Virus record (IMG/VR): IMGVR_UViG_3300027798_000023 | Length of the DNA stretch: 64,000 nt | Reading direction: 5' to 3' (one strand) | DNA from: an uncultured virus (IMG/VR IMGVR_UViG_3300027798_000023) | Lineage: Duplodnaviria; Heunggongvirae; Uroviricota; Caudoviricetes | Shown: one piece after another, positions 3,091-56,238 of the stretch | Numbering within the stretch: the stretch's first letter is position 1 | How the letters are laid out: every line of letters starts with the position of its first letter | Made by a program: the position numbers and the translations under genes | Notes under the pieces: generated by a model | The model's input: only the letters and a program-made list of their open reading frames with translations | Databases searched by the model: none | Told to the model about the DNA's origin: nothing

Positions 3091-6000
3091 ATGCAAGACC
3101 CTACCCTCGCCGCTCAGTCGGGAGAGATGAACACGGAAGATCAGTTCTCTGGAAACATCGCTCAACAAATTCCAAGCATTACCCCAGCAGTTGAAGCTCC
3201 TGTTGAAGCACCTGTTGAAGCTCCTGTTGAAGCTCCTATTGAAGAGCCTGTTGAAGAAAAAAGAAACATACTCAAGTTCTCTGAATGGGTATCTCAAAAC
3301 ACAGGCGATGGGACGAGCGATATTGAGAAACAGTTTGCGGCTGATCCGTTATCCAAGTATCGCGGATACTCCGGCTATGTTCGTCAGTCACTTCTTGAAC
3401 GTGGCGAGTGGGATGATGAGGTCATCGCCAACGTGGATAAGAACATCGCAGGCATTGCGATTGACGCCAAAGACTATAGTCCCAAAGACCCGAACGCAGA
3501 GGTTACGGTTGACGACGTATTGGCTAAACCAAAAACGGATGAGCTTCCACTAGACTCTCTTCTTTCTTATGCGTCATCTTCGGAAAAGGATTTCGCAGGC
3601 GTGCGCACAAACAGCGTAGCCAAACTGATGGCTCTTAAACAAGACCCGAACCTTGCCACTGCAGAGTCACTAGCCGCAGCAGAACTTTCTGTTCGCGAAT
3701 GGGTCACACCTGAGATCATTGCTGAAGCTACCCAGAACGACATACGTGACGGACGTAAACTTGCAGCTGTTGTTCCCCCGCCGATTGAAGGTGGCGCGTC
3801 TGACGTAAAGATCAGCGATTCTCTTTTTAGCTATGTCCGCGAAGACGGGTCTATCGACGACGAGAACTTAGCCAAAGCCATCAAGATGAATGGCATTGAC
3901 CCTGAGCTTATTGCGCCTATCCGTCAAAAGCTGTCAACACCTGCAGGGTATAAAGTTCCGTATGCCCAGATTGAAAAGCAAGCTGAGTTTGTTTCAAGCC
4001 TTGACGCAGTTTCTCGCACCCGTGGTGCTGACGGAAGTTTCAGAGCGTACGACGCGCTTCAAAAGATTGCTAGTGCCACCAAGAACAACAACACGGCTTA
4101 CATTGATAGCTATGGCATGAACGAACTTGAAGAAAGTTTGAAAGGTCAGAAGTTCTGGGACGAGTCATCGCCTGAACAACGCCGCACTTTTGTTAATGAC
4201 TACGTCAAGGCGAACGACATGTCAGAGTTTGACATGGAAAAACCTGAGACAGCGTTGAAGACTCTGTCAACAGGTGAGGTAGTCGCGCCCATCACTCTCA
4301 TGCTTAACGATAAAGCATTTGATAAAGCCCTTAATTCTGGGGCTGTTCCCAAAGAGCAGCAAGAGCGCATGCGGAATGTGAGAGATGCTCAAGTTGAAGC
4401 CAACGCTGCCAACATCATCAAAGTCATTGCAAAGAACCCGCAAGGCGGGGCTGAGTTTGTCAACTACTTGGATCAGCAGCAAACCGCTGGCAAGTCCAAG
4501 AGCGAGATCGTTAAAAGCTGGATCAGCAGAGACGAGTTTAGCGCGGCAAAGACATTCGGCGTAGGGATCGCCGCATCTTTGAAGGACGCCGTCTTGCCGT
4601 TTGTGTACCTCGGCACGCCGGGATCTGGCATGGATAACTTCGCCATGAAAGAAATGGTTAAGTCGAACGAAGCCGATGCTAACCGTCGTGAATACGCTCA
4701 ACTTTTTAACCGCGACCTTGGCATGGGCTACGACCTTAGCCGCTTGGTAGCACCTGTTGTTGCTGACCTTGCCGCAGCACGCCTTACGGGCGGACTGTCG
4801 ATGGGGGCTACTTCCGTTGCACGTAAGACCGTAGGCACTGTTGTTAAAGCCACGATGCGTGAGTCGCTTGAGGCAGGCACAAAGACTGCGATGCAATCGT
4901 GGATCAAGTCGATGGCACGCAGTGGAGCAGAGTCCATTGGGACAAAACTCACTGCACGCAATACGGTTGACGAAGTTATCTCCTTGGCTGGACGCGACAT
5001 CGTAAACAAGATCGGCACAGGAACAGGCTACGTGGCTATGCAAGCCGTCGGGTTTAATCGTTCCGCGACTACGACATACGCAAGCCTAAGCACCACGCTT
5101 GCGTCAGAGAAAAACCCTGACGGGTCTGCCAAGTATACACCCGAAGAGGTGAAAGAGATTGCGATGAATCACTCGCTTATCTCAGGCGCGATTACGGCTG
5201 GCGTAATTGGAGGATTCCAGTTGATGGGAAAACCCGGACTTGAAAGACTTTTAGATAGAGGACTCACCAAACCACAGCTCAATAGGGTGTTTACACGTTT
5301 GACTAAAGACATGGGTTCGCTTGGCGGAGGCGTCGAAACCGCAGCAGCGCAAGGCATGCTGAAGTCGATGGTAAAAGAAACGATCATCCCGTTTACCAAG
5401 AGTGCGGCAGTTAAAGGTTTTGTCGAAGAGAGTCTTGAAGAATCATCAGAGTCTATCCTTCAGTCAATCAATACTGCGATAGCAACCGGAGAGCCTGTCA
5501 AAATTAAAGACATTATCCAAGGCGCGGCGTATGAAGGTCTCCTTGGAGGAGTCATGGGCGGAACAATTACCAGCATCGGTGCGGGAATGCAAAACCGCAG
5601 AGCGGTAAATGTAGCCTTGGAAGCTGACATCCGTCGTGAGAAGTTGCTTGAGATCGCTGGCAAACTTGACACCACGTCACCACAAACTGCAAAAGTAATA
5701 CGTAACTTTGCGGCAAACCAACGTAGTTTGTTCCCTCAACAAGCAGACCTTGAAGCCAGACTTAAAAAAGCTAAGGGCGAAGATAAAGCGCAGATCCAGT
5801 CTGAGATAGATCAACTAAAAACCAATGCAGCACAAGACCCAAAACAACGACTTGTCACTCCCGCCCAAGAAGGCGTACCTACGACTGAAGCAGCAGGAGG
5901 GACTGTCACGCCACCAAGCGAAGCAGGAATGGCTACAACTGGAACAGAAGTTCCTCCAACGGAAGCTGGAACGCCAGAGGGCGGAACCGCTGCCAAGCCT

Positions 6001-9000
6001 GCAAGAGCAGCAGATAAACCTACCAGACAATCTTTAGAACAAAATTTTGAGCAAGAGTTTGCTGGAGACCCAGACGTAATGGGCACAACGCCAGAACCCG
6101 TGAAGCACGCCGGACGTGCGCGTATGGCTGAGAGGATTCTTGTGTCCAAGGGTGTCGATCCAGCAGTTGCAAACCAAATTGCTGCAGAAATATCAACACA
6201 AGCAGGGGAAACATCTGCCACTGAACAGTTCAGAGAAAGAGTGTTTGAAGTGTTCCGCAATGAAGGTGGCGTATTTCCTGACGAATTGACCCTATTCTCT
6301 GAAGACGCTACTCTTTACGAAGCAGGCGGAGATACGAAATCCAAAGATACTGCGGCTGAAGCAGTAAAACAAAATGCAGAAAGGCGAGCCGAGGCAAGCG
6401 CAACTAACGCAACAGTAGCACAGAAGATTCGCAGCGCAAAAGCCGGAGTCCTTGCACCTACTACTGGAGTTGCTCCTGCTGCTACCTCTGCACCTACAGC
6501 TGCACCTGCTACTCAAGCTCAAACCCCTGCTAAACCAAGTTCAACGAAACCATTGACTGGGTATCAAGCTGGTTTTGAACTTGCTCGTATAGCTAGAGAA
6601 GCAGGAGTGGATTTAACACAGTTGTCTAGGGAGCAGTATGCCGACTATGCTGTTCAACATGGGATGAGAATTGACGATAATCAATTAAGACTTCGCCCAG
6701 AGCTTAGAACACAGGAGACAATGGATGAGAGTTTAAAAGCTAGAAAAGCTACTCAACCACAAAACGATTCAGATAAAAAGAGTGACGAAGCCTTCGCTAA
6801 ATTTGCAGCTAATACGCAGAATTTAGCATCAGGTAAAGGAGTGTCCCACAATGGACAAATAGCTACGGGCGTTGAAGTCAGAAGCGGAACAGCCACATCA
6901 AATAGCTGGTTGTTTTGGAAGATCAATAAAGGTGCGTCAGCTAATACACAAGAAGATACCCACAAGGCATACGTAGGTTTCAAGAATGTATACAGCTCAC
7001 TGACACCTAGTCGGATTACCGCTTTTATGAAGCAGCTTCAGTCAGCTGGGTATAACGGAGACATTAAAACTATCCAAGACTTAGCTACCCAAGCGTCCAT
7101 ATCAGATCAAGTGGTAATGCACGGAGCTAGTAAAGCGGACGCCAAGCTCGCTCTCGATGAAGCAATTAAATTCTTTGGCGATGAATTGTCCTTTACGGAT
7201 AGTGGAGTTGATTCAAAGGGTAAATCGCACAGTCAAATTATATCTGATAGCATACAAGACAGAATAAATAAATCTCAAACATCTGCACCTGCTGCTACCG
7301 CCGCACCTGCACCTACCGCCGCACCTGCACCTGCACCTGTTGCAGAAACCCCAGCCAAGCCCGAAGGTCGTAGTACTGCCTCGATGAGAGATACGATTCG
7401 TACCAAACTTGATGCGGCTGAAAGCGCAGCTACGCTTCCATACCTTACACCGGAGCAAGCTCAAGTGTTTACCGACAAAGCCGAGCGTCTTAGTCAGATG
7501 CTTCAACAAGCCGAGCAAGTTCTTCAAGAAGAAAGCAAAGTCGCAGAAGCTAAAGCACTTGACGATAAAGGTGGAGTTAATCCATCGGCAGACCCAGCTG
7601 ACGTAATCACCATTGCCGAAGCGAACGATGTTCCAATCTCCAATGTTCTGAAAGTCAACAGGGTAACGCCTCGTGAGCGTGCGCGTGAGATCCTTAAAGA
7701 CCTTGATATATCAAACAAGGCAGTTGAGACCACCATGAAGATCAGCTCCCCACCGCCGATCATCAGCATCATCCGTAAGAAAAAGAAAAACGGAGGTAAA
7801 CTTACCAACAAAGAGATTAAGATTTTAGAGGCGAACCAGCAATACAACGCGTATTTGCCAAAGAGCGCATTTGGTAACGACTACAACGGAAAAGTAGCAC
7901 GCGAATTGCACGACATGATTTTCACCCGATACGATGGCGGAGACGCAGCGGATGTCGTGGCAAGATCTGTGGAGGACACAATGACTGGCGACGAGTTGAT
8001 TCTCGCAATCATGTCTGAGCTTACAAACGTATCTCGTGGGGCTACCACAAGCGTAGATCCAGACAGCGATGTCCGTAACCCTAATCGCACCAACTGGACA
8101 GATGAAGAGATTGCCGAGCAGCAAGCACTCGTATCTGAGAAGCAGCGGTTGAGATTTGAACAGAGCAACACCTTTGACTTTGGACGTGACGAGATCGCAG
8201 TATCTGATTTGAAACTTGGTGACACGATCACCCTCGATGGCGAGACGCTTGAAGTATCCCTCATCGACGAAAACGGATCAGTCGTCCTTATTGGCGGTGA
8301 CAAGTTCGGAACTCAGGTTCTTTCTGCTACCGACTATGTTTACTCCGAACCTGCTCTTGAACAAGAAGTAGACGTGGAGATGGAAGAAGAAATGCCGGAA
8401 TGGCTTAAGCCTAAAGCGACTCCTGCACCTGCGCCTGCACCTGCACCTGCACCTGCACCTGCACCTGCACCTGCACCTGCACTTGCACCTGCACCTGCAC
8501 TTCAATCCGAGATTGACAGAAAGAACGCAGATTCCAGAGAGTTGTTTGCCGACGACGGAGGTTTTGCTTTGACTGGCGAAACAACCGTAGACGGAACAAA
8601 GATCGAGGCAGAACGCAAAGCCAAAGCAGAAGCTGAAGCAAAACAAGCTGCAGCCCAAAAGACTATGTCGTTCGACGACATCTTCTTTGAAATGCCTGCC
8701 GACTACCCACTTACTCGTGAGCAAGCTACCCTGCTGTCAACAGCTGTTGACATGCCTGCTGGACTTCTATCAGCCATGCGGTCAAACCCTTCAGTCGCTG
8801 ACTTAGTTCGTTTGTATCTTGAGAGCAAAGGACTAGCAGTTGAGAACACAAAACTCAGCTCACTTGCTTTGATCGCAGAGGGTGAGCTTCGCGCTGACAA
8901 TGTCCTTAACGCCCTCCGTGGAGATAAGAGCATCAAGTATCAACCAACTAAAACAACAGCGTCAAAAACTCTTAGAGAACTCAATAGTTTTGGTTTTGCT

Positions 9001-12000
9001 ATGGGGCTTACCAAGATGTTGAAGAACATCGTCGCTAGAGGTGGATCAGATTATTCTCAAGTTGCCAAAATGCTTCTTGATGTAAAAGCGGACTCTGTAG
9101 AAGTGCGTATTGTAGACCTTCCAAATACTAACGTAGCAGGGTTCTATGACCCGTCGTCTAAGATTGTCTACGTCAACATTGCCAAGGGTCAAGAAGGCCC
9201 ACGTGGTGCGGTTGACACCGTGCTTCACGAGCTTCTCCACGCAGTAACTGATACGTCATTGCAGAACCCCAACGCCGCACAAGCAAAAATCATTAAGAAG
9301 ATTGAGCGCGTTCGTCAGACGGTTATCAAACGTGCGAAACAGAAAGGCGTGTATTACGACGATCTTCAATACGCGTTAAGCAGCAACGACGAGTTCTTAA
9401 CCCACTTCTTCACATCTGACAAATTTAGATCTGTAGTTTCCAGATTGTCCCCACCAAGCGAACGCAACTTGTTGCAAGTCATCACCGACCTTATCGCTGA
9501 TTTGGTATCTGGACGCAGCCGCGCAGATCGTGACATCGAGTCACTTCGCAAAGGTCTTGTAAGTTTGATCCAAACACCACGGAACGGACTTGTGCCATCG
9601 GATACGGTTACTAGCTTACCGCCCACACCGATTGCAGCTACAAATAAACCGAAAGCTAAAACCACAGTTCCTAAAGGAGTTGAGCGAGCAGCAAAAGCAG
9701 CTGAAGAAGTTTTGACTTCCAAAGAGAAACAATCTTTTAGTAAGACCATAGGCGAAACCGCATGGTCAGACATGGCGGCACAACGCTTCGGTGAGATGAT
9801 GACCGACTGGGTAGCATCTGGCAAAAAACTTTCAGGCAATCTTGCAAAAATGTTCCAGAAAGTATGGGAGCATCTTAAAAAACAATCACGCAATATCGGT
9901 GTAATCATCAGCGTATCGACCATGCTGAACGTAGCACCGACAGTGACCGCCCCACAAATGGCAGGGGAGCTACCTAATGACGGTGCACCTACGATGGTAG
10001 CCGACACGTCAGTAATAAACTACGACAGTGTTCCGACTCCAGAAGACATGGAGATGAATCCTACAAGAGCTGCGGCTTACATCGACTTTGACATTAACGC
10101 AGATCCACTTCCCGTATACACGTTAGAGATCCCTACCACTGTTGCTGAAGCACCTAGTGTTCAAGAACCTGAAGCACCTGTCTTTGTTAAGAAGCCGGAC
10201 TTCAAAGGTATGTCTCTCAAAGATAACGCACAGAAAATGACGAACTGGATCGTGGCGAATAATGATAACGAATCATTACCATTTATCGTTGCCGATAAAA
10301 CGGACGGAGCTTTATACTTGTTTGATACAGAAGGTCAGCTTACTGGCAAAGTTGACGCTTTGTTTGGACGTAATGCCGGAGACTTTATTAAGACCGAAGG
10401 CGTGTCTTACAGAACTCCAGCGGGTAGGTTCGATGCTGAGAAGTATGCGTCTCAGGACTACGGTGATACTGTTCGGTTCCACCGCGTTGGGAACAATAAC
10501 TTCTTGATGCACAGAATACCAAGCAGTTCTAAAACTACATCACCAGCCCAACGTCGTGCTGCGTTAGCTTCAGAAACTGCAGAGGATAATCGCGTGACCA
10601 GTGGTTGCTTGAATCTTGATCCTAAGAAAGTTCCTGAAGTAGTCGAACACTTCAATAACGGTGGTGTCGTATACGTTCTGCCAGAGACTCCAGAAGGAGT
10701 ATCCACGTTCCAAGGATTCGCTGATGCGGGTGTTCGTTTCCAACCGTCCGTCGGTCTTAGAGACGTAGCACGCTTCAACCAGCTTATCTCTGATCTGCCG
10801 ATCAGACCAACACAGGCAGACATCGACTCATGGAAAGAAGCAAACCCTGAAGCATATACTGAGCTTCAGAACATGCGTGCTGAAACTGTTTTTAATACTG
10901 CTACGGAAATCCCAGAAGCGTACGTCGGAACTCCTAGAAACTTAATGGGATTCACAAAAGAAGGTCAGCCAAATAAAGGATATGAAACTACTAATTACTC
11001 AAAAGAGATTACAATCGCTGGTAGGTTTGATGACGGAAGGTATTTTATAGACGGCATGAAAGGGCTTAACACCCCGCACGCCATGCAAAGAGCAAGGTTA
11101 AACTGGGAGGGAGCAGACATACGCCTAGTATCAGAAACTCCAGCTACCGTATCAGCCGCCGAGCCTCTCAACCTCGATGACAATGGCGATTTGGTTACTC
11201 CCGATAAGTGGGCGGACGAGATGAGTATGGACATCCGGTTCCAGCCAGCGGTTGGAGCAATGAACGCCATTCCTCCGATACCTGAGTCAGAAGGTGGCTT
11301 GATGAATCCTTCAACTTGGGAATCTCTTACTCGTGAAGGGTACGATCCATCCGCATCAGAGAAGACACAAAGGTCATCAACAGCATCAACGTATAAACAA
11401 ATACTAGACCAGTATGCCACAAAAGGAATGGAAGTGCTGGACTTCTCTGCAGGGCTAGGTGCTGGCACAGAGGTAGGTAAAAGACTAGGGCAAGATGTAG
11501 GTTTCAACATGGTGGGGTATGAGCCATTCTCTAACCCCGACAAGCGTGTCGTGACCCCAGAGTATGAAGGCATGGAATCTCTAAATCAAATCCCTAACAA
11601 CAGTAAGGATCTGATAATCAATAACGCAGTCCTCAACGTAGTTCCTGAAGACACGGGCAGGCAGATATTGAAAGACATTTACTCCAAGCTGAAACCGAAT
11701 GGAGCGGCGTTCGTCAGCGTGATGGGGTGGAATAACATTAAAACAAGGCTTACTAACCCCAAGACCAAGATTGTCGGCCCAAGAGAAGTTCTCACTTCCA
11801 TTGGTACATTCCAGAAAGGATACACTCCTCAAACTCTGGCGAGACTTATCTATGAGGAGTTGCCTGACGCAGAAGTATCTAAAACAGGTTTCGGTGATAT
11901 AGGTTTTAAAATAACTAAACCTTCAGGCATCCGCTTCCAGCCAGCAGCACAAGATGGGCGAACAGTTCTTACAAAGGACGAACGTGCTAAAAAAATAGCA

Positions 12001-15000
12001 GAGTTCAAAAGTTTTCAAGAAAAAGCCGCCGCCATAGTTGGCGATGGAAACCTTACCAAAGCGGAAGCAGAAAAGTATGTAGGGGTAATGAGAAAAACAA
12101 ACGCCCTTTTATTTGATCTGGCTAAAGCTCCGACACTCGAAAAACTACCATCTGAAGAAAACAGAAAGAGCACATTACCTTTCGATGTTGTGCTCACCGC
12201 ATGGAACGATTTGTTTAGGAGCCGGAGTGTATATGAGCCAATCGTAGAGGCAGCTACGGGAACGTACTACAACGCAGATACCCCTGTTGACGATGTGATG
12301 AATGGTACAAACCCGCAAGTCTCTCCAGAGAGATTGTATAATACGTTCAATCAAACGCGTGAAGCGTTAAGATCCACGTTTGGTGATACAATAAAACTTT
12401 ATCGTGCCGGAGGAAAACAAAAAACTAAGACAACCAAAAACTGGGGAACTACACGAGAGTTTGTATCTCAATTCGGCAACAACATTATTGAGGAAGATAT
12501 TCTAATCGACAACATTATCGCCCTGAATGTCGGAGCTTTTGGAACTTACCATGAGATAATTGTAGGTGAGCCACCAACTAGAGGAATTAGGTTCCAACCA
12601 GCGTCTAAAATTAAATGGGATGTAAAAGGCATAGGCTCCGTTCCAAAACAAATAGACACAGACTACTTTGGCTTTGTTAGAAACATGACTCCTGAAAATT
12701 TCAGGAAACTTGTCCCAGCAGGAGTCAGTGGTGAAAACACTAAAGAGTATATTAAGGCACGAGTTGCAGCAGGTGACACCATCGCACCACCGTGGATTGA
12801 GCCTGATTGGGACGACAATAAAAAGCAATGGATTCTCGACCCAGCGTATCACGAAGGACGTAGTCGCTCAGATGCCGCCGCCGAACTAGCACCCAACAGC
12901 ATGATGCCAGTGTCTATTCTCCCTAGAGGAATGAGAGCAAGGAACATGACCGAGGAAATGCTGGTAGCACCTATCGTAAATGGTGACACGGGTGCAGAGG
13001 TTAAGTTCCAGCCATCCGACGATTACCTCTCAACAGATCCTGAAGAGATCGCTAAGTTCTTCGGTTCGTTCAGGACTCCGATGCAAATGTTAAAGGACAT
13101 GATCCCTGCTCGTAGAACCATCGAGAGTCTCGGCATCGACGCCGACACACTCATGGCTGAAGCAGAGCCTTTGGATTACAGGGCTCAAGAGAAATACATC
13201 GAAGCTGCCGTGAACCACGCTCTCGCTCGCAAAGCAGGAAATGCGACTCTTGAAGATCCTGAAGATTACACCAAGGCGTTCGAGCTTATCACCCGTGGTA
13301 GGTTTGAAGGTGTCCACATCAGACCGTTCCGTGCTAACAAGTCTGCCCAAGAGAAGCTAATTAAATATCTCGAAGCGGCTATTGATGCGATCTACGCCCG
13401 TGTCGGTGACAACGTCGCAACTCAGGTTCTCGCGAGCCGCATGAGAAATACCCTCGCCAGTGCTAAGGTTGGGTTCCACGACGACATCAACGTATCCCGT
13501 GGATATGAGCAAGGCGAGTTTATGCTTCAGCCTTCCGCTAATAACCAAGGCTTCTATTCCAAATTGGAAGAAGTCGTTAATTCCAAAATCCCTAACTCAG
13601 CTACCCCTCAGCAGATCATAAGCACGATCTCAAACCCATCCAATGGTGTTAAGACTGAAGAGATCAAATGGTCAGGCATTGGGCAAGCTGTCGAAAGCCT
13701 AGCCGTAAATGGCAAGGTGTCGAAGGACTCGCTGATTAACTACCTTCGCAATGAAGGTGATGTGACGTTTGAGGAAGTTACGTTAGGAAATAATTTATTC
13801 AACACCCCTGAAGAAGCTATTGAATACCTTGCTAAGAAAGAAGGAGTGACCACTGATTACATACGTGAGTCTTACGGCTTCATAAATGAAAGTGACTACA
13901 TAAATACAGCAGCATACGAAGCTGGAGCAAGTATTCCTAAGTATGCCCAATACCAACTTCCCGGCGGCAAGAACTACCGCGAGGTCGTGTTAGCGATGCC
14001 TGAGAAAGTGAAAGCAACAGGATTCCAAGTGTTCCGCAAAAAGACGGGGAACTGGCTGGCGACTTTCAGCACCAGAGATGCGGTAGACCGATACCTTGAA
14101 TCCATCATGGAAACGGAAGCTGATGGAAACATCGAAGTTCGTCAGGGTCTGGAACTGGCTGAAGACCGTGAGCGTTCAGTTAAATACACATCATCCCACT
14201 TCAAAGACATCCCGAACTACGTAGCCCATATGAGGCTTAACGAGCGCACGGATGCCGAAGGTAACGACGGTCTGTTCATCGAAGAGATCCAAAGCGACAG
14301 GCATCAAGAGGGACGGAAAAGCGGATACCAAACCGACATCCCGACCGATGAGCAGGTTCGTAAATTCTTCGGGTTAGCTCCTGAAGCCGACCCAGCCGAT
14401 TACAGGCAGGAGATGATGGATTCCAAGGATTACAAAAGGGGAGTAGTCGCAGACGCACCATTCCGCACCACATGGCCACTCGCTATGTTTAAACGCGCTC
14501 TGCGTGATGCAGTTGAATCCGGTAAAGATTGGATCGGATGGACTACAGGCGATACGCAGAATGATCGGTATAACCTATCTAACCATATCAAATCTCTCGA
14601 CTGGGTGACCAGTAAGAATGGTAACAGAGATGTCTTTATCGAACCTATAGGTCAAAACGGATTTACCTTTTTTGTTAAACCTGACGGAACAGTTATCAAT
14701 AGATCAGGTGAGTCCGCTGCTGGCATCGTCCCAGATGGTTCTCGCTTAGACGAGGTAATAGGGAAGGATGTCGCAGACCTTATATTGAGTAATGAATCAG
14801 GAGACTTAAAAGGTGAAGGTTTAAATATCGGCGGCTCCGGCATGAAAGGATTCTACGATACCATGCTTCCCAAAGAGATCGGCAAGTATGTCGAGAAGCT
14901 GGGAGGCGGTAAGGTTGAGAAGTCATCAATCTCCACTCCGGAATCGAGTAAACGCATCGACGACCTAACGGACGACGAGCTTTTACAAGAGCTTAAACGA

Positions 15001-18000
15001 GACAAAGATTCCGTACCCATCTGGAAAATCAACATCACGCCGGAGATGGCAACAGCGGTTGAAGCTGGACAAGTTCGATTCCAACCAACAGGTGCACCAA
15101 GACAAAATCTTCTGAATACCCCAAGCAGCAAAGCAGGTTACCTTGACTTGTATACTGACGACAATGGTGTTCGTGCAAGTGCTGACAAAGCCGAGAGTTC
15201 AAACTCATGGTTGCGCAAAGCCAATGAGATGTTCATTAAAACATTTGGTGCGCTTTCCGAGTCGGCGTCTAAATCGAAACTCAATCGAGATGCGCTATCA
15301 CGCACCACGGAGGAAACTATCGCCCGTCTGAGCAAGCGTCTGTCCGCAACTATTAGAGCTGAGGAAGTTGACACCCACCTTGTGCAGTTGGCATCCGGCA
15401 ATCCTGATCCGCTTATTTCTGAAGCGGTTGAGAAGGACATCATCCGTACGTATGAAGATGAAATAGCCAGTGCCACGGATCGTATTCAAGAGGAGTCTCT
15501 CTCCATCAAGGATCAGACCGAAGCCAAACAGTATATCAAAGACAACATGGCAATAGCTATTAGCGAAGCCGAACGCGCTCGTAAGATCCGCATTTGGAAA
15601 GAGCGCACGGAATCAGCTGATGCTCGTCGCAAACAACAGATGGACGCACTTGCTGAACTTGAGCGCACGTCTCCTGATACATACGAAGCTCTCATCGACA
15701 TGCGAGCATTCCTCAATGACTTGCAACAACGCGTGAAACGCTTGAACGTGGGTAACCCTGAGATTCAAGCGATCATTGACCAGTCGATGAGCGTCTATCT
15801 GGTTCGCTCTTACAGAGTCCACCAAGATCCTAAACAGGTCGATCTCATGCTCAACTCGCAAGATCCTGAGTATGCCGCACGTCGTGAAGCACTTATCAGT
15901 TTCTTTGACGCAAAAGCCAAGGACGACATTATGAAGGAGCTTGAGCGTGACCCTGATTTCTTGAAAGCATTCAAGGGTGAGTATGACTACAACAAGGTTA
16001 TTGCCAGCATGGAAGAGATTGCCAGTGAACGCTCTAGCGCACGCGCACTCCAGATGTTCAACGACTTTATGGTAGCCCACCAAAACGAGACTGGATTGTT
16101 CGGCGGCGGAAGCGACGTGACTAACGAGATCTCGCGCTACATGAAGAAAATGAACATGCCACAGCAGTTCCTTGACGCACTCATGGTCAACACTGACCCT
16201 GTGTTCAACATGGTAAACACTGGTATGTCGCTTGGTCGATTGATCGTGAACGCAAACATGCTTTCTGAAATCGCGGCATCCGGCATTGAGTCAGGCAGGT
16301 ATATCTCTGAAGCGGAGAAAGTATCAGGCATAGCCTACAAAGATGGGCATAACCTCTTACGTGAAACCTTTGCTTCGACAGGTAACGAAGAAGTCAAACA
16401 GGATGTCAGAGACAGACTCTTTACTCCACTGTATAGACAAGCTGAAGCGGCTTACACTCGTGGCGAGATTGCAAACAAACCATCTCGTGAAGAGATCGGT
16501 GCAAAACTCGATAAGGCTCTTAAAGAGTTTGGCGAAAGCAAAGAGTCACTGGCTGACTTACTTCCTGAGCTTGGGCTTAAAGCTGATCGACTTGCTACTG
16601 ACCTCTTCATCTCGTCAAGCAAACTGACAATGAAGATCAAGGACAAGATGATCCCGCTCAAGGGTCGTTATGCAAACTGGGTTCCGTTGGTCTCACCTAA
16701 CGAGGGTAACTCCGCGTATGCGCCACTTGGCGGGCTTTACGCATCCCCAGAACAAGCCGAAGCATTCCGTGCCACGTTCCACACTGGTAAAACAGCAGCA
16801 GAACACTTCGCACAGAAAGCACTTGGTGCAGTCAATAAGAAGCTCATTGGGGCGGCTGGTGTATCTCTTGGGGTTGCGACCCTCGGTAGCCCAGCATACT
16901 TTGTGCGTAACGTCTTCGGCGGCATGTTCTACGCTGGCATGAACGGAGTAAACTTCACTGATCCAAAACTGGTAGCAGCTGCGACTGACTTCATAAAAGC
17001 CACGATCATCAACACTGACCAAATCTCTCCTGAGTTCCAAGAGCTTATCGCGGGACGTATCGCGTTGGACGGCGCACAGATCGGATACCTCAAACAGCTC
17101 ATTGAGAGCATGGGTAAAGATCAGTCAGCGACGCTCGACAAGCTCAATGAGATTGCAGGTATTTCTGATGAGAAGCTCAACTCAGCGTTCAAGAAAGGTA
17201 AACGATACGGCAAGGCTGCACTTAACAAACTTCAAGCACTTGCTGAAGTAACCGAAGTGTATCCTGCGGTTATGGCATACCTCGACTTCAAAACCAAACT
17301 TGAAGAAGCTAACTTCGGCACAGAGCGTGAGATTCAACAAGAGGCAAGTCGCTTGACGAAACTCGTCATGCCATCCAAATCGGAAGCGTCAACCGCAGTG
17401 TCGGCGTTCACAGGCTCCGGACTTGGTGCGATGGTAGGTGCGTTCATCCGCTTCAAAGCAGAGGTGATTCGTAACACAGTTAATTCCGCTAAATTGGCGT
17501 ATCAATGGAGTAACTCCGACAACGAAGTTCTTCAAAAATACGGTCGTCGTAAGATGGCTGCGTTTGCCACTGTCGCGGGTCTCATCACAGTTGGCATGCC
17601 AATCATTGCACAACGGCTTATCCAAGGACTTGGGGACGACGAGGACGAAGCTATTCGTTCGTCTCTTCCTGACTACTTGCAGAACGCATCGTTGTATTAC
17701 TTTGTAGGCGAGGACGGCGTGCAGATATACAACATCTCATTCACCAACCCTTACTCGTTCGGACTTGACCCCATTTCACGTTCGCTCAACGCAATCATAT
17801 CCGGAGATCCAGAAGAGATTCCGAGTATCATAGCGCACTTCATAGCTGAAGATACGTTCGGTGAGAACATTGTAGCAGGGCGTGTAATTGACGCGAAGCG
17901 CAACATCAACACGTCAACTAACAGACCTATCTATTTCCAATCGGATAGCGGGGCTATGCAGGTGACTAAACAAGTTGGATACATTGGCGAAGCATACTTG

Positions 18001-18561
18001 CCACGGTTGTTCACCCAGATGAACAGATTCTACGATGCAACCAAACGTGATACCGAAGGTGCTGAGTTCTTCTACTCACCACTGGGTGTTGCTCTTGGCA
18101 CAATAGCTCCGTTTAAACCATTGGAGAAATCCTTCGACGACATCGAACGCGGATCGTTCAATGACATTCGCAGGAAGAAAAGCGAACTGTGGATGATTAC
18201 TTCACCTGTCATTTCGCCTGCTCCTCTTTCCGGAAAAGAAGCTGTCCAACTTCGCGAAAAACGTAGCGAGATGAACATGTCGATCAGCAAAGAGACCCTC
18301 AAGCGTGTTGAAGGATTTGCAAAACTTCGGGCTAACTCAGGTAAAGTTAGCGAGAAGAGCGCACTCCGCGACATTAAGAAAAGCGCGAAGTCAGCAGGTC
18401 TTTCCGAATCACGATTCAACGCACTGGTTGACCGGAAAACGGTTGAAAGGTTCGTCTTCCCTGAAGATGACATGCGTAAGATGAAGAAGATTGACCCTGA
18501 ACGCTACGCGGCGTTCAAGAAATCTGAGCGCAGTGAGCCTCGAAATATCCCGATCAAGTAA
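3091..18561 (+). CDS. giant polyvalent virion/ejection protein (5156 aa) with zincin peptidase, L,D-transpeptidase, SAM methyltransferase, ADP-ribosyltransferase-like and ParB-like domains
   Basis: 15.5-kb ORF; HELLH (9226-9240); MHR...SGC YkuD motif (10510-10608); VLDFSAGLG/VLNVV; LYRA..NWGT..HEIIV; HEGRSR; EEIQSD; helical hydrophobic N- and C-terminal regions. Confidence 0.9.
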   Translation: MQDPTLAAQSGEMNTEDQFSGNIAQQIPSITPAVEAPVEAPVEAPVEAPIEEPVEEKRNILKFSEWVSQNTGDGTSDIEKQFAADPLSKYRGYSGYVRQSLLERGEWDDEVIANVDKNIAGIAIDAKDYSPKDPNAEVTVDDVLAKPKTDELPLDSLLSYASSSEKDFAGVRTNSVAKLMALKQDPNLATAESLAAAELSVREWVTPEIIAEATQNDIRDGRKLAAVVPPPIEGGASDVKISDSLFSYVREDGSIDDENLAKAIKMNGIDPELIAPIRQKLSTPAGYKVPYAQIEKQAEFVSSLDAVSRTRGADGSFRAYDALQKIASATKNNNTAYIDSYGMNELEESLKGQKFWDESSPEQRRTFVNDYVKANDMSEFDMEKPETALKTLSTGEVVAPITLMLNDKAFDKALNSGAVPKEQQERMRNVRDAQVEANAANIIKVIAKNPQGGAEFVNYLDQQQTAGKSKSEIVKSWISRDEFSAAKTFGVGIAASLKDAVLPFVYLGTPGSGMDNFAMKEMVKSNEADANRREYAQLFNRDLGMGYDLSRLVAPVVADLAAARLTGGLSMGATSVARKTVGTVVKATMRESLEAGTKTAMQSWIKSMARSGAESIGTKLTARNTVDEVISLAGRDIVNKIGTGTGYVAMQAVGFNRSATTTYASLSTTLASEKNPDGSAKYTPEEVKEIAMNHSLISGAITAGVIGGFQLMGKPGLERLLDRGLTKPQLNRVFTRLTKDMGSLGGGVETAAAQGMLKSMVKETIIPFTKSAAVKGFVEESLEESSESILQSINTAIATGEPVKIKDIIQGAAYEGLLGGVMGGTITSIGAGMQNRRAVNVALEADIRREKLLEIAGKLDTTSPQTAKVIRNFAANQRSLFPQQADLEARLKKAKGEDKAQIQSEIDQLKTNAAQDPKQRLVTPAQEGVPTTEAAGGTVTPPSEAGMATTGTEVPPTEAGTPEGGTAAKPARAADKPTRQSLEQNFEQEFAGDPDVMGTTPEPVKHAGRARMAERILVSKGVDPAVANQIAAEISTQAGETSATEQFRERVFEVFRNEGGVFPDELTLFSEDATLYEAGGDTKSKDTAAEAVKQNAERRAEASATNATVAQKIRSAKAGVLAPTTGVAPAATSAPTAAPATQAQTPAKPSSTKPLTGYQAGFELARIAREAGVDLTQLSREQYADYAVQHGMRIDDNQLRLRPELRTQETMDESLKARKATQPQNDSDKKSDEAFAKFAANTQNLASGKGVSHNGQIATGVEVRSGTATSNSWLFWKINKGASANTQEDTHKAYVGFKNVYSSLTPSRITAFMKQLQSAGYNGDIKTIQDLATQASISDQVVMHGASKADAKLALDEAIKFFGDELSFTDSGVDSKGKSHSQIISDSIQDRINKSQTSAPAATAAPAPTAAPAPAPVAETPAKPEGRSTASMRDTIRTKLDAAESAATLPYLTPEQAQVFTDKAERLSQMLQQAEQVLQEESKVAEAKALDDKGGVNPSADPADVITIAEANDVPISNVLKVNRVTPRERAREILKDLDISNKAVETTMKISSPPPIISIIRKKKKNGGKLTNKEIKILEANQQYNAYLPKSAFGNDYNGKVARELHDMIFTRYDGGDAADVVARSVEDTMTGDELILAIMSELTNVSRGATTSVDPDSDVRNPNRTNWTDEEIAEQQALVSEKQRLRFEQSNTFDFGRDEIAVSDLKLGDTITLDGETLEVSLIDENGSVVLIGGDKFGTQVLSATDYVYSEPALEQEVDVEMEEEMPEWLKPKATPAPAPAPAPAPAPAPAPAPALAPAPALQSEIDRKNADSRELFADDGGFALTGETTVDGTKIEAERKAKAEAEAKQAAAQKTMSFDDIFFEMPADYPLTREQATLLSTAVDMPAGLLSAMRSNPSVADLVRLYLESKGLAVENTKLSSLALIAEGELRADNVLNALRGDKSIKYQPTKTTASKTLRELNSFGFAMGLTKMLKNIVARGGSDYSQVAKMLLDVKADSVEVRIVDLPNTNVAGFYDPSSKIVYVNIAKGQEGPRGAVDTVLHELLHAVTDTSLQNPNAAQAKIIKKIERVRQTVIKRAKQKGVYYDDLQYALSSNDEFLTHFFTSDKFRSVVSRLSPPSERNLLQVITDLIADLVSGRSRADRDIESLRKGLVSLIQTPRNGLVPSDTVTSLPPTPIAATNKPKAKTTVPKGVERAAKAAEEVLTSKEKQSFSKTIGETAWSDMAAQRFGEMMTDWVASGKKLSGNLAKMFQKVWEHLKKQSRNIGVIISVSTMLNVAPTVTAPQMAGELPNDGAPTMVADTSVINYDSVPTPEDMEMNPTRAAAYIDFDINADPLPVYTLEIPTTVAEAPSVQEPEAPVFVKKPDFKGMSLKDNAQKMTNWIVANNDNESLPFIVADKTDGALYLFDTEGQLTGKVDALFGRNAGDFIKTEGVSYRTPAGRFDAEKYASQDYGDTVRFHRVGNNNFLMHRIPSSSKTTSPAQRRAALASETAEDNRVTSGCLNLDPKKVPEVVEHFNNGGVVYVLPETPEGVSTFQGFADAGVRFQPSVGLRDVARFNQLISDLPIRPTQADIDSWKEANPEAYTELQNMRAETVFNTATEIPEAYVGTPRNLMGFTKEGQPNKGYETTNYSKEITIAGRFDDGRYFIDGMKGLNTPHAMQRARLNWEGADIRLVSETPATVSAAEPLNLDDNGDLVTPDKWADEMSMDIRFQPAVGAMNAIPPIPESEGGLMNPSTWESLTREGYDPSASEKTQRSSTASTYKQILDQYATKGMEVLDFSAGLGAGTEVGKRLGQDVGFNMVGYEPFSNPDKRVVTPEYEGMESLNQIPNNSKDLIINNAVLNVVPEDTGRQILKDIYSKLKPNGAAFVSVMGWNNIKTRLTNPKTKIVGPREVLTSIGTFQKGYTPQTLARLIYEELPDAEVSKTGFGDIGFKITKPSGIRFQPAAQDGRTVLTKDERAKKIAEFKSFQEKAAAIVGDGNLTKAEAEKYVGVMRKTNALLFDLAKAPTLEKLPSEENRKSTLPFDVVLTAWNDLFRSRSVYEPIVEAATGTYYNADTPVDDVMNGTNPQVSPERLYNTFNQTREALRSTFGDTIKLYRAGGKQKTKTTKNWGTTREFVSQFGNNIIEEDILIDNIIALNVGAFGTYHEIIVGEPPTRGIRFQPASKIKWDVKGIGSVPKQIDTDYFGFVRNMTPENFRKLVPAGVSGENTKEYIKARVAAGDTIAPPWIEPDWDDNKKQWILDPAYHEGRSRSDAAAELAPNSMMPVSILPRGMRARNMTEEMLVAPIVNGDTGAEVKFQPSDDYLSTDPEEIAKFFGSFRTPMQMLKDMIPARRTIESLGIDADTLMAEAEPLDYRAQEKYIEAAVNHALARKAGNATLEDPEDYTKAFELITRGRFEGVHIRPFRANKSAQEKLIKYLEAAIDAIYARVGDNVATQVLASRMRNTLASAKVGFHDDINVSRGYEQGEFMLQPSANNQGFYSKLEEVVNSKIPNSATPQQIISTISNPSNGVKTEEIKWSGIGQAVESLAVNGKVSKDSLINYLRNEGDVTFEEVTLGNNLFNTPEEAIEYLAKKEGVTTDYIRESYGFINESDYINTAAYEAGASIPKYAQYQLPGGKNYREVVLAMPEKVKATGFQVFRKKTGNWLATFSTRDAVDRYLESIMETEADGNIEVRQGLELAEDRERSVKYTSSHFKDIPNYVAHMRLNERTDAEGNDGLFIEEIQSDRHQEGRKSGYQTDIPTDEQVRKFFGLAPEADPADYRQEMMDSKDYKRGVVADAPFRTTWPLAMFKRALRDAVESGKDWIGWTTGDTQNDRYNLSNHIKSLDWVTSKNGNRDVFIEPIGQNGFTFFVKPDGTVINRSGESAAGIVPDGSRLDEVIGKDVADLILSNESGDLKGEGLNIGGSGMKGFYDTMLPKEIGKYVEKLGGGKVEKSSISTPESSKRIDDLTDDELLQELKRDKDSVPIWKINITPEMATAVEAGQVRFQPTGAPRQNLLNTPSSKAGYLDLYTDDNGVRASADKAESSNSWLRKANEMFIKTFGALSESASKSKLNRDALSRTTEETIARLSKRLSATIRAEEVDTHLVQLASGNPDPLISEAVEKDIIRTYEDEIASATDRIQEESLSIKDQTEAKQYIKDNMAIAISEAERARKIRIWKERTESADARRKQQMDALAELERTSPDTYEALIDMRAFLNDLQQRVKRLNVGNPEIQAIIDQSMSVYLVRSYRVHQDPKQVDLMLNSQDPEYAARREALISFFDAKAKDDIMKELERDPDFLKAFKGEYDYNKVIASMEEIASERSSARALQMFNDFMVAHQNETGLFGGGSDVTNEISRYMKKMNMPQQFLDALMVNTDPVFNMVNTGMSLGRLIVNANMLSEIAASGIESGRYISEAEKVSGIAYKDGHNLLRETFASTGNEEVKQDVRDRLFTPLYRQAEAAYTRGEIANKPSREEIGAKLDKALKEFGESKESLADLLPELGLKADRLATDLFISSSKLTMKIKDKMIPLKGRYANWVPLVSPNEGNSAYAPLGGLYASPEQAEAFRATFHTGKTAAEHFAQKALGAVNKKLIGAAGVSLGVATLGSPAYFVRNVFGGMFYAGMNGVNFTDPKLVAAATDFIKATIINTDQISPEFQELIAGRIALDGAQIGYLKQLIESMGKDQSATLDKLNEIAGISDEKLNSAFKKGKRYGKAALNKLQALAEVTEVYPAVMAYLDFKTKLEEANFGTEREIQQEASRLTKLVMPSKSEASTAVSAFTGSGLGAMVGAFIRFKAEVIRNTVNSAKLAYQWSNSDNEVLQKYGRRKMAAFATVAGLITVGMPIIAQRLIQGLGDDEDEAIRSSLPDYLQNASLYYFVGEDGVQIYNISFTNPYSFGLDPISRSLNAIISGDPEEIPSIIAHFIAEDTFGENIVAGRVIDAKRNINTSTNRPIYFQSDSGAMQVTKQVGYIGEAYLPRLFTQMNRFYDATKRDTEGAEFFYSPLGVALGTIAPFKPLEKSFDDIERGSFNDIRRKKSELWMITSPVISPAPLSGKEAVQLREKRSEMNMSISKETLKRVEGFAKLRANSGKVSEKSALRDIKKSAKSAGLSESRFNALVDRKTVERFVFPEDDMRKMKKIDPERYAAFKKSERSEPRNIPIK
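3190..3255 (+). repeat. coding tandem repeat (VEAP)n
   Basis: GTTGAAGC(T/A)CCT 12-bp units, about 5 copies. Confidence 0.85.
8422..8499 (+). repeat. coding hexamer repeat (CCTGCA)n = (PA)n linker
   Basis: About 13 copies with minor variants. Confidence 0.9.
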
Positions 18562-54195: not shown

Positions 54196-54214
54196 CACCC
54201 CACAACCCCAGACC

Positions 54215-54610: not shown

Positions 54611-54632
54611 TCTCACCCCACAACCCCAGACC

Positions 54633-55167: not shown

Positions 55168-55198
55168 CCAACACCCCAACACCCCAACACCCCAAACC

Positions 55199-55456: not shown

Positions 55457-55493
55457 CCAACCAACACCCCACAACACCCCAACACCCCAAACC

Positions 55494-56226: not shown

Positions 56227-56238
56227 CCCACCCACAAA

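What the first reader, a model, noticed from the sequence alone, without database searches (positions are those of the whole stretch)
8932..15087. Recurrent [VI][RK][FY]QP motif punctuates the effector domains of the 5156-aa protein
Seen: IKYQP (8932), VRFQP (10732), IRFQP (11233, 11929, 12586), VKFQP (13000), FMLQP (13519) and VRFQP (15073), at the junctions between peptidase/transpeptidase, unknown, methyltransferase, ART-like, ParB-like, unknown, EEIQSD and C-terminal modules. Codons differ between copies, so conservation is at the protein level. Established: large polyvalent phage proteins carry strings of effector domains together with peptidases. Inference: a cleavage signal for the internal HELLH zincin or a maturation protease (a phage polyprotein), and/or a junction for domain swapping.
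Basis: partly seen in the sequence, partly recalled or inferred. Interest (0 to 1): 0.8.

Follow-up and report, generated by a model that had tools for sequence, protein, structure and literature searches.

The report
Junction peptide code in giant phage protein
A 5,156-residue phage protein strings gene-sized enzyme modules together with one short peptide (Ile/Val-Arg-Phe-Gln-Pro) that sits in the flexible joints, and relatives use their own versions of it, so it is most likely a "cut here" signal, though no cutting has been shown.

Summary
The 5156-aa ORF (3091-18561, +) carries seven [VI][RK][FY]QP and one FMLQP at the stated coordinates, against 0.0075 expected. Codons differ between copies and no other real ORF in the window has the motif.

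The motifs are true module boundaries:
- Homology breakpoints pile up on them.
- Modules match homologs motif-to-motif.
- Three modules have stand-alone homologs (140-250 aa) that end within 8 residues of the motif and lack it.
- In AlphaFold models, four of five tested motifs lie in low-confidence linkers and the fifth at a fold edge.

Among 111 giant homologs (polyvalent proteins in the sense of Iyer et al. 2017), many repeat their own "dialect" of an h-x-[FY] junction peptide, such as ALFSSP, LQFMPAE, ILYASDL or IRFQLSEDAF. One methyltransferase module is flanked by RFQP here and RFMP elsewhere.

The best reading is a lineage-specific processing signal of a virion-delivered polyprotein, and also the seam at which modules are swapped. 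Cleavage is not shown and the protease is not identified. The embedded HELLH zincin is only a candidate: zincin presence does not separate motif-rich from motif-poor homologs.

Earlier notes of this scan report the same phenomenon on other DNA. I found no description in print.

The parts
3091..18561 (+). Giant ORF, 5156 aa (P0001): a phage polyvalent protein
   Evidence: It has 111 giant homologs carrying ART-PolyVal, LPD, InPase, MutS_I and similar Pfam domains.
3091..8931 (+). N-terminal region, aa 1-1947. It has no junction motif. Low-complexity (PA)n and VEAP linkers and Gly/Ala-rich hydrophobic stretches. Function unknown; an ejection or structural role is presumed.
   Evidence: No Pfam or PHROG hit. 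Aa 60-1000 are conserved in about 14-16 homologs.
8932..8946 (+). Junction motif 1, IKYQP (aa 1948-1952). This is the weakest copy.
   Evidence: Homolog similarity ends or starts here, and other homologs have extra modules inserted at this point. P0010 has VSLQP.
8947..10731 (+). Module 1: zincin-like domain (aa about 1951-2180) followed by a YkuD-like region below Pfam's cut-off (aa about 2398-2529).
9226..9240 (+). HELLH, the zinc-binding motif of the embedded zincin (aa 2046-2050).
   Evidence: H96, E97, H100 and E151 of the aligned module are invariant in 14 sequences.
10732..10746 (+). Junction motif 2, VRFQP (aa 2548).
   Evidence: Ten alignment starts lie within 15 aa.
10747..11232 (+). 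Module 2, aa 2553-2714, function unknown. It ends ...TPDKWAD.
   Evidence: Matches whole modules of P0005, P0016 and P0004 (1-207 of 207, and similar).
11233..11247 (+). Junction motif 3, IRFQP (aa 2715).
   Evidence: It aligns with RFMP in P0235.
11248..11928 (+). Module 3: SAM-dependent methyltransferase.
   Evidence: Methyltransf_23, E 1.1e-7. Stand-alone homologs of 211-214 aa.
11929..11943 (+). Junction motif 4, IRFQP (aa 2947).
   Evidence: It lies in a segment with pLDDT under 50 (model residues 1-30).
11944..12585 (+). It ends ...YHEIIVGEPPTRG.
   Evidence: Hundreds of relatives, among them stand-alone proteins of 197-251 aa that end at ...YHELIV(GEPP).
12586..12600 (+). Junction motif 5, IRFQP (aa 3166).
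   Evidence: The only internal low-confidence segment of the two-domain model, residues 242-247, is this motif.
12601..12999 (+). Module 5: ParB/sulfiredoxin-like fold.
   Evidence: Foldseek against sulfiredoxin: probability 0.96, E 0.12. Stand-alone homologs of 142-190 aa.
13000..13014 (+). Junction motif 6, VKFQP (aa 3304).
   Evidence: It lies at the C-terminal edge of the fold: the first residue is in a confident strand and the rest is in a block with mean pLDDT 54.
13015..13518 (+). Module 6, aa 3309-3476, function unknown.
   Evidence: Shared with P0010, P0006, P0005 and others.
13519..13533 (+). Junction motif 7, FMLQP (aa 3477), a degenerate copy.
   Evidence: Eighty alignment starts lie within 15 aa. 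pLDDT is under 50.
13534..15072 (+). Module 7: the universal 'EEIQSD' module with a GNAT-like core. It ends ITPEMATAVEAGQ.
   Evidence: Present in about 100 of the 111 giants. AF2 mean pLDDT 77.5. Nearly all of the top 50 VIA matches are GNAT acetyltransferases, Z 7.2-9.1.
15073..15087 (+). Junction motif 8, VRFQP (aa 3995). This is the 'reference site' conserved across the family as GQ-x-x-[FY] plus the lineage's dialect.
   Evidence: Fifty-nine alignment ends lie within 15 aa. pLDDT is under 50.
15088..18558 (+). C-terminal module, aa 4000-5156, with no junction motif and with hydrophobic segments. An ejection or membrane role is presumed.
   Evidence: Aligns from its first residue with the last modules of P0010, P0003, P0004 and P0005. 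No Pfam or PHROG hit.

Best explanation
The ORF is a phage polyvalent protein built as a cassette array. A motif-free N-terminal part of 1,947 residues and a motif-free C-terminal part of 1,157 residues (presumed virion/ejection parts) flank seven gene-sized modules. These are a zincin plus YkuD-like module, an unknown module, a methyltransferase, a second unknown module, a ParB/Srx-like module, a third unknown module and a GNAT-like module.

Each joint carries the peptide [VI]-[RK]-[FY]-Q-P-[SAT] in a short flexible linker. It is this lineage's version of a family-wide junction peptide: a hydrophobic residue, any residue, Phe or Tyr, then 2-6 lineage-specific residues.

I take it to be a recognition site for one protease whose specificity drifts between lineages, so that all joints of one protein change together. 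The chain would be cut there into separate enzymes, most plausibly after delivery into the host cell or inside the head. The same seams are the points where modules are gained, lost and swapped.

Shown here: the motif, its protein-level conservation, its position at module ends and in linkers, and the dialects.

Inferred: that it is cut, when it is cut, and by what. The embedded HELLH zincin is the nearest candidate, at about 0.3 overall. If a thermolysin-type zincin does the cutting, the invariant aromatic would be the residue just after the cut (P1'). That rests on recalled knowledge of the specificity of such enzymes.
For: 1. Non-random, at the protein level, and private to this ORF.
- 7 matches against 0.0075 expected.
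- Five different Arg codons, no shared nucleotide word above 11 nt, and random-level flanks.
- No copy in any other real ORF of the window.

2. At module ends.
- 186 of 323 alignment ends lie within 15 aa of a motif (11% expected); 38 of 133 against 9.1% without the universal module.
- Motif-to-motif matches of whole modules.
- The C-termini of 23 of 26 short stand-alone homologs project to within 8 residues of the motif's Phe.
- None of the 26 has the motif at an end.

3. Accessible.
- Motifs at aa 2947, 3166, 3477 and 3995 fall in segments with pLDDT under 50.
- In the two-domain model the only internal such segment, residues 242-247, is the motif itself.
- The motif at aa 3304 is at a fold edge.

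4. Dialects.
- In 93 of 112 giants with a recognisable reference site, the two residues after the aromatic at that site predict further h-x-[FY]-d1-d2 sites in the same protein at 0.367 per 1000 aa. The same patterns occur at 0.108 per 1000 aa in giants of another dialect.
- 30 of 93 have three or more extra sites.
- Examples: IRFQLSEDAF x4-5 (P0008), IRFQQG x6-7 (P0011), [AT]L[FY]ASDL x6 (P0044), ALFSSP x4-5 (P0031), LQFMPAE (P0022, P0038, P0048), VRFSK x5 (P0098).

5. The dialect belongs to the host protein, not to the module. The same methyltransferase module is flanked by RFQP here and by RFMP in P0233 and P0235.

6. A candidate protease is on board. HELLH has invariant ligands. HExxH occurs in 83 of 112 giants against 5.8 expected. 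Zincin subfamilies go with dialect classes: AVDTVLHELLHAVT with IRFQx, and the HE[MV]QHA / HEVGHH module with F[ML]P.

7. Context.
- Iyer et al. 2017 predicted that zincin-like MPTases process such proteins (PMC5512222, passages read).
- A 2811-aa relative-in-kind, phi24B gp47, is found in virions (bioRxiv 10.64898/2026.04.10.717836, passages read).
- Prohead proteases of T4 and SPN3US cut head and ejection proteins at short consensus motifs (PMC5694885, passages read).
Against: - No cleavage product has been seen. Nothing here distinguishes a cut site from a conserved uncut joint.
- Zincin presence does not track the motif: HExxH occurs in 27 of 30 motif-rich giants and in 25 of 31 giants with no extra site.
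- P0042 (ALFAGNRTG joints) and P0009 and P0034 have no HExxH. P0045 has six extra loose matches (four strict), four of them with the full ASDL/ASDM ending, but shows only a degenerate EEVRH in the zincin-C position.
- The link between zincin subfamily and dialect is fully confounded with phylogeny.
- Iyer et al. state that N4 virion RNA polymerase, ArdC and TraC1 travel unprocessed although they carry an MPTase.
- The aromatic part of the motif (GQ-x-x-[FY]) is also kept at the end of stand-alone GNAT-like proteins that have only a 14-25-residue tail after it. At that site it may therefore belong to the module.
- 31 of 93 giants show no extra dialect site. In 15 more distant giant ORFs from IMG/VR the excess is weak: 8 against 4.1 expected.
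- Many proteins that carry module 4 have plain Pro/Ala-rich linkers after it.
- Pro directly after Gln would be an unusual residue after the cut (P1') if the cut were Q|P. This rests on recalled knowledge.
Confidence: 0.5

Rival explanations
1. The peptide is an uncut joint. It is a conserved linker element bound by something other than a protease, for example a packaging or ejection component or a chaperone that handles the chain module by module. Or it is a short element that keeps neighbouring modules from interfering with each other. The protein acts as one chain.
For: - Iyer et al. report that N4 virion RNA polymerase, ArdC and TraC1 are delivered unprocessed.
- The linkers are short: about 15 residues between the last strand of module 4 and the first strand of module 5.
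- The GQ-x-x-[FY] element persists in stand-alone proteins.
- Dialects fit any single co-evolving binding partner as well as a protease.
Against: - Stand-alone homologs of three modules work without the peptide: 0 of 26 carry it at an end.
- The peptide sits only between modules, never in the long N- and C-terminal parts.
- No candidate binding partner is known.
- A signal placed at every joint of gene-sized enzymes is the hallmark of polyprotein processing.
Confidence: 0.25
2. The peptide is chiefly a recombination seam. Modules move between related phages by exchange within the conserved junction, and the motif is kept because it allows in-frame cassette exchange. Any recognition at the protein level is secondary.
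For: - Modules are gained, lost and reordered exactly at the motifs.
- The same methyltransferase module appears in proteins of two dialects.
Against: - The copies share at most 11 nt, use five different Arg codons, and have flanks at random identity of 0.29. This is poor substrate for homologous exchange and the signature of selection on the peptide.
- A moved module takes on the dialect of its new host protein, which needs selection after transfer.
Confidence: 0.12
3. It is a cleavage site read by a protease that is not part of this protein. This could be a separate phage maturation protease or a host protease that meets the chain after ejection. (This is a sub-case of the cleavage reading; its weight is part of the 0.5 given there.)
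For: - Some motif-bearing giants have no HExxH (P0042, P0009, P0034).
- Zincin presence does not discriminate.
- T4- and SPN3US-type prohead proteases cut ejection proteins at short motifs.
Against: - No protease family was recognised in 46 other ORFs of the window apart from an M15 endolysin-type peptidase. Most structural ORFs have no hits at all and no whole genome is held, so this is weak.
- No other ORF of the window carries the motif, unlike the substrates of head proteases.
- Fast-changing dialects fit a slowly evolving host protease poorly.
Confidence: 0.2

Closest known systems
Polyvalent proteins of phages and conjugative elements (Iyer, Burroughs, Anand, de Souza, Aravind 2017, J Bacteriol; PMC5512222; passages read)
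   Same: - One polypeptide with many unrelated effector domains and an embedded zincin-like peptidase.
- Homologs carry the family's Pfam domains: ART-PolyVal, LPD1/5/23/38, InPase, MutS_I, RadC.
- Processing by the peptidase was predicted there.
   Different: That paper, as far as my term searches of its text go, names no junction or cleavage motif: 'linker', 'boundar', 'interdomain', 'spacer' and 'motif between' each occur 0 times, and 'junction' occurs only for Holliday junctions. Its supplements were not read.

Here the joints carry a defined peptide with lineage dialects, which gives exact predicted cut sites.
Head and ejection proteins trimmed by prohead proteases at short consensus motifs (T4 gp21; SPN3US and phiKZ AXE/SXE; PMC5694885, passages read)
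   Same: A short consensus peptide marks the sites where virion-internal proteins are cut. Cuts were mapped by mass spectrometry.
   Different: - There the motif occurs in many head proteins and mostly removes N-terminal propeptides.
- Here it is private to one protein, lies between whole enzymes, ends in an aromatic rather than Glu, and no prohead protease was recognised.
Polyproteins of RNA viruses with protease-specific junction sites (for example potyvirus NIa and picornavirus 3C; recalled, apart from search listings)
   Same: The same short site sits at every junction. It is consistent within a virus and differs between viruses, with the protease embedded in the chain.
   Different: - This is a DNA phage, the candidate is a zincin rather than a chymotrypsin-like protease, and cleavage is not shown.
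- The likeness of VRFQ to potyviral sites, which I recall and did not check, is taken as coincidence.
phi24B gp47, a 2811-aa polyvalent virion protein proposed as an ejection protein (bioRxiv 10.64898/2026.04.10.717836; passages read)
   Same: A giant polyvalent protein with LPD domains and a metallopeptidase, detected in virions by proteomics and absent from the cryo-EM density.
   Different: No junction motif or processing of gp47 is reported in the passages read. I did not compare its sequence with this protein.
Pre-toxin junction motifs of polymorphic toxins (VENN of CdiA, DPxGL of Rhs; recalled, no call)
   Same: A short conserved peptide marks the seam before a swappable module, and in some cases is also a processing site.
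   Different: Those have one seam per protein before a C-terminal toxin. Here there are eight seams separating seven modules, with lineage dialects.

Membership tests
Polyvalent proteins (Iyer et al. 2017) | Two or more unrelated effector or enzymatic domains in one polypeptide of a phage or conjugative element | tested here: met
   - Domains: methyltransferase (Pfam E 1.1e-7), HELLH zincin, GNAT-like module, ParB/Srx-like fold.
- Phage context: primase, exonuclease, gp2.5-like SSB, DNA polymerase, helicase and TerL.
Polyvalent proteins (Iyer et al. 2017) | Homology to proteins carrying the family's signature domains (ART-PolyVal, LPD, InPase and others) | tested here: met
   The 111 giant homologs have precomputed PF18760, PF18796, PF18799, PF18838, PF18857, PF18823, PF01624 and PF04002. 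LPD38 and ART-PolyVal were confirmed by my own scan of 13 of them.
Polyvalent proteins (Iyer et al. 2017) | Zincin-like MPTase domain (HExxH plus a downstream Glu) | tested here: inconclusive
   - The motif and an invariant downstream E151 are present.
- Pfam gives only Zn_peptidase_2 at E 0.053.
- PHROG 2206, 'virion RNA polymerase', matches at E 7.2e-8.
- The fold was not modelled.
Polyvalent proteins (Iyer et al. 2017) | Delivered into the recipient cell with the DNA (packaged in the virion) | not testable with these tools
   Indirect evidence only: weak similarity of the zincin module to the PhiM1 ejection protein gp48 (8VB2_A, E 0.0031) and the phi24B gp47 precedent.
Protease-processed viral polyprotein | One consensus peptide at the junctions between functional units | tested here: met
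   Eight junctions. Breakpoints and stand-alone homolog ends coincide with them.
Protease-processed viral polyprotein | Sites lie in exposed, flexible segments | tested here: met
   Four of five modelled motifs are in segments with pLDDT under 50 and one is at a fold edge. Three motifs (aa 1948, 2548, 2715) were not modelled.
Protease-processed viral polyprotein | A cognate protease whose specificity matches the sites | tested here: inconclusive
   A zincin is present, but its presence does not discriminate (27 of 30 against 25 of 31). The link between subfamily and dialect is confounded by phylogeny.
Protease-processed viral polyprotein | Cleavage products observed | not testable with these tools
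   No proteomic data exist for this uncultured phage. I found no paper reporting such products.
Prohead-protease substrates (T4 gp21 / phiKZ gp175 type) | The same motif also occurs in other head proteins of the phage | tested here: not met
   No copy in any other ORF above 77 codons in the 64-kb window.
Prohead-protease substrates (T4 gp21 / phiKZ gp175 type) | A prohead protease gene in the genome | tested here: inconclusive
   None was recognised by PHROGs or Pfam in the other ORFs. Most structural ORFs have no hit, and no whole genome is held.

The most novel reading that the evidence does not exclude
The junction peptides and an embedded protease form a co-evolving 'cleavage code'. A DNA phage would then use the polyprotein strategy of RNA viruses: it delivers one giant chain and cuts it at eight programmed sites into seven free enzymes plus two structural pieces inside the host. 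Each lineage would keep a private code so that swapped-in modules must be re-tagged.

A bolder corollary concerns the one residue that never varies across dialects, the aromatic or Leu. If the cut falls just before it, as thermolysin-type zincins prefer, every released enzyme would start with Phe, Tyr or Leu. These are the bacterial N-degron residues read by ClpS. Each effector would then carry a built-in timer. Both points of enzymology are recalled, not tested.
Probability: 0.3. Interest if true: 0.8.

Novelty: new variant of a known kind. Interest (0 to 1): 0.62.

Why it matters
Polyvalent proteins are common in phages and conjugative elements. Whether they act as one chain or are cut into separate effectors has been an open prediction since 2017.

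A defined junction peptide gives exact residues to test by N-terminomics, peptide assays and point mutants.

It also gives a rule for parsing thousands of giant metagenomic ORFs into their functional units, many of which have no known family.

If the code and a cognate protease co-evolve, the system would also be a natural set of orthogonal protease-and-site pairs.

Tried and rejected
- Docking of the zincin module (alignment A4, with Zn) to a 37-residue junction peptide (aa 2930-2966) with complex prediction: score 0.02, 'no answer'. This is no evidence either way.
- Foldseek of the universal module against the PDB: nothing at E 0.001 or better. The VIA wide search gave consistent but middling GNAT matches, Z 7.2-9.1. 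I take this as a lead, not as membership.
- VIA wide search of the two-domain model was swamped by helical-hairpin matches to residues 32-90 and says nothing about module 4. Pfam at E up to 5 gave only noise for modules 2, 4, 5 and 6. The 'ART-like' label therefore stays unsupported.
- A first alignment for a three-module model (A2) misaligned the methyltransferase homologs. I dropped that module from the fold, so the motif at aa 2715 was not modelled.
- The idea that the universal module is the protease: rejected, because its fold matches are acetyltransferases.
- The idea that upstream [ILV]TPE[EMQ] is part of the junction signal: it is seen at only about half of the joints and is a common helix-start pattern, so I dropped it.
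- Phage collection search (tblastn of aa 1948-4094): 13 partial hits and no close cultured relative.
- The whole genome of the window is not held. No tRNA and no Rfam family in the window.
- Chance, low-complexity sequence or a DNA repeat as the origin of the motif: rejected.

Full report
**What is there**

The window is phage DNA. PHROG scans identify a primase, an exonuclease, a gp2.5-like single-strand-binding protein, a DNA polymerase, a helicase, an endolysin-type peptidase and a large terminase. Most ORFs on the minus strand between 30 and 50 kb match nothing.

One ORF, 3091-18561 on the plus strand, encodes 5156 residues. Each is followed by Ser, Ala or Thr.

- The strict pattern occurs 7 times against a mean of 0.0075 in 2000 shuffles.
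- Eight of the protein's ten Gln-Pro pairs are in the motif.
- A six-frame scan of all 64 kb finds no further copy in any ORF longer than 77 codons.
- At the DNA level the copies are not repeats. The five arginines use five different codons, and the flanks are at random identity (0.29 against 0.67 in the core). No two junctions share more than 11 consecutive bases.

**The motifs are module boundaries**

A search with residues 1900-4100 returned 111 proteins of 2,842-7,250 residues. Their precomputed Pfam domains (ART-PolyVal, LPD1/5/23/38, InPase, MutS_I, RadC and others) place the family among the polyvalent proteins of Iyer et al. 2017 (PMC5512222).

- *Alignment ends.* BLAST ends of these homologs on the query pile up on the motifs. 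Within aa 1850-4100, 186 of 323 ends lie within 15 residues of a motif, where 11% is expected. Without the two edges of the universal module it is 38 of 133 against 9.1%. The subjects are related, so these are not independent events.
- *Whole-module matches.* After cutting 13 proteins at their motifs, whole modules match whole modules. Query 2551-2717 equals residues 1-207 of a 207-residue module in P0005. The methyltransferase module equals 6-224 of a 224-residue module in P0002. The C-terminal module aligns from its first residue with the last module of P0010, which lacks the universal module altogether.
- *Stand-alone homologs.* An exhaustive profile-free search with residues 2501-3520 found 1025 relatives. 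The methyltransferase, module 4 and the ParB-like module each have stand-alone homologs of 140-250 residues. The C-termini of 23 of 26 short representatives project to within 8 residues of the motif's Phe, and 11 of 26 N-termini project to within 15 residues of the position after it. None of the 26 carries the motif at an end. For example, stand-alone proteins stop at ...YHELIVGEPPR, where the query continues ...YHEIIVGEPPTRG-IRFQP-ASKIKWDV. Stand-alone ParB-like proteins begin just before ...INWDV.

**The motifs are exposed**

| Model | Region | Alignment | Mean pLDDT | Segments with pLDDT under 50 | Motifs in them |
|---|---|---|---|---|---|
| Universal module | aa 3465-4010 | 54 sequences | 77.5 | tails 1-22 and 531-546 | FMLQP and VRFQP |
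| Modules 4 and 5 | aa 2925-3325 | 35 sequences | 85.3 | 1-30, 242-247, 385-401 | IRFQP-2947 (residues 23-27); IRFQP-3166 (residues 242-246) |

In the second model, VKFQP-3304 (residues 380-384) starts in a confident strand and runs into a block with mean pLDDT 54. Three junctions (aa 1948, 2548, 2715) were not modelled.

**Dialects**

The universal module ends in nearly all relatives with ...ITPEMRxxVxxGQ, then two residues, an aromatic and a variable tail: GQALFSSP, GQALFAAP, GQLQFMPAE, GQPLFS and, here, GQVRFQPT.

The tail at this reference site predicts what recurs elsewhere in the same protein:

| Protein | Repeated junction peptide |
|---|---|
| P0008 | IRFQLSEDAF |
| P0011 | IRFQQG |
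| P0027 | [IS]R[YF]SQFG |
| P0031 | ALFSSP[ST]P |
| P0044 | [AT]L[FY]ASDL |
| P0042 | ALFAGNRTG / ILYAANRTG |
| P0022, P0038, P0048 | LQFMPAE |
| P0098 | VRFSK |

The strict test asks for a hydrophobic or small residue, any residue, F or Y, then the same two residues as at the reference site. Extra sites occur at 0.367 per 1000 residues in the protein's own sequence. They occur at 0.108 per 1000 in giants of another dialect. Of 93 giants with a reference site, 62 have at least one extra site, 41 at least two, 30 at least three, and 31 none.

The same methyltransferase module is flanked by RFQP in the query and by RFMP in P0233 and P0235. The dialect therefore belongs to the host chain, not to the module.

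The phenomenon is not universal.
- In 15 more distant giant ORFs from IMG/VR the excess is only 8 against 4.1 expected.
- Many proteins that carry module 4 continue with plain Pro/Ala-rich linkers.

**What reads the peptide?**

A peptide kept by selection at every joint, and changing in step within a protein, points to a single reader. A protease is the simplest reader for joints between gene-sized enzymes.

For the embedded zincin:
- HELLH at aa 2046-2050 has invariant ligand residues.
- HExxH occurs in 83 of 112 giants against 5.8 expected.
- Zincin subfamilies go with dialect classes.

Against singling it out:
- Those classes are also separate clades.
- HExxH is as frequent in giants without extra sites (25 of 31) as in those with three or more (27 of 30).
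- P0042, P0009 and P0034 have none. P0045 has a degenerate EEVRH at the zincin-C position.
- Iyer et al. note that N4 virion RNA polymerase, ArdC and TraC1 are delivered uncut.

Other points:
- No other protease was recognised in the window, and no whole genome is held.
- GQ-x-x-[FY] is also kept in stand-alone GNAT-like proteins with a short tail after it. At that one site the aromatic may belong to the module, or the tail may be trimmed.

**Comparison with the known, and novelty**

The protein is a member of the polyvalent-protein class, whose processing by MPTases was predicted in 2017. My term searches of that paper found no mention of linkers, boundaries or junction motifs; its supplements were not read.

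Five full-text searches returned no paper describing junction peptides or mapped cuts in such proteins.

The nearest experimental precedents:
- Prohead-protease motifs (AXE/SXE) in giant phages (PMC5694885).
- The virion location of phi24B gp47.

Earlier notes of this scan describe the same kind of junction peptide with dialects in other genomes, including a Phe-Met-Pro version. They are unchecked AI notes. They agree with what I found, and I saw the FMP dialect myself in the homologs.

I therefore class this as a new variant of a known kind.

**Verdict**

| Claim | Status |
|---|---|
| The observation | Confirmed |
| Module-boundary and swap-seam role | Shown by comparison |
| Exposure of the motifs | Shown by models for five of eight sites |
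| Cleavage | Likely but unproven (about 0.5) |
| The zincin as the protease | Open (about 0.3) |

Noticed in passing
window 13534-15072 (+), aa 3482-3994: The one module shared by nearly all 111 giants has no Pfam family. Its signatures are SSHF, YVAHMR, EEIQSDRHQ, WIGWTTG and MKGFYD, and 25 columns are invariant in 54 sequences.

Its AF2 model matches GNAT acetyltransferases almost exclusively in a whole-PDB fold scan (Z 7.2-9.1). The top matches are the tRNA-acetylating toxins AtaT and TacT, and the list includes the anti-CRISPR AcrVA5.

It also exists as a stand-alone gene of 530-770 aa on phage contigs of 20-66 kb.
   Followed up: partly
window 51473-51811 (-): A 112-aa ORF matches PF18909, the N-terminal domain of dATP/dGTP diphosphohydrolase (E 1.5e-24). 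I recall this family from phages that replace a base in their DNA.

None of the 46 other ORFs scanned gave an adenylosuccinate-synthetase-like (PurZ-type) hit.
   Followed up: no
window 54001-58000: Composition shifts sharply here: GC 0.53-0.54, GC skew -0.29 to -0.15, AT skew +0.25. Many short ORFs overlap on both strands. There is no tRNA and no Rfam family.
   Followed up: no
window 8941-9690 (+), aa 1951-2200: The zincin module has a weak sequence match to the tetrameric ejection protein gp48 of Pectobacterium phage PhiM1 (8VB2_A residues 383-523, E 0.0031; identity of the entry from PMC11440229). It also matches PHROG 2206, 'virion RNA polymerase' (E 7.2e-8). Both fit a virion-internal, ejected protein.
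   Followed up: partly
P0326, P0338, P0347, P0371 and others (stand-alone ParB/Srx-like homologs); window about 12940-12999: Stand-alone homologs of module 5 end with [IL]T[PD]EM...PF[IV]PQ[RK]. This resembles the ITPEM...GQ-x-x-F end of the unrelated GNAT-like module. A shared C-terminal element on two different folds is unexplained.
   Followed up: no
window 3091-8931 (+), aa 1-1947: The long N-terminal part uses a different kind of joint: VEAP repeats near the start, runs of (PA)n near aa 1790 and Ala/Pro/Thr-rich stretches. It has no junction motif. This suggests that it stays in one piece.
   Followed up: no
P0069, P0096; locus L065: Some relatives carry the ITPxM...GQ-x-x-[FY] module end two or three times in one chain. 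In L065 the EEIQSD signature also occurs twice, so there the module itself is duplicated.
   Followed up: no
P0040, P0070: In the zincin module of the F-M/L-P dialect group, two members have HExxxH (HEGGGH, HEVAGH) where 14 others have HExxH. They may be inactive or have altered metal sites, yet P0040 keeps five strict (seven loose) extra junction sites.
   Followed up: partly
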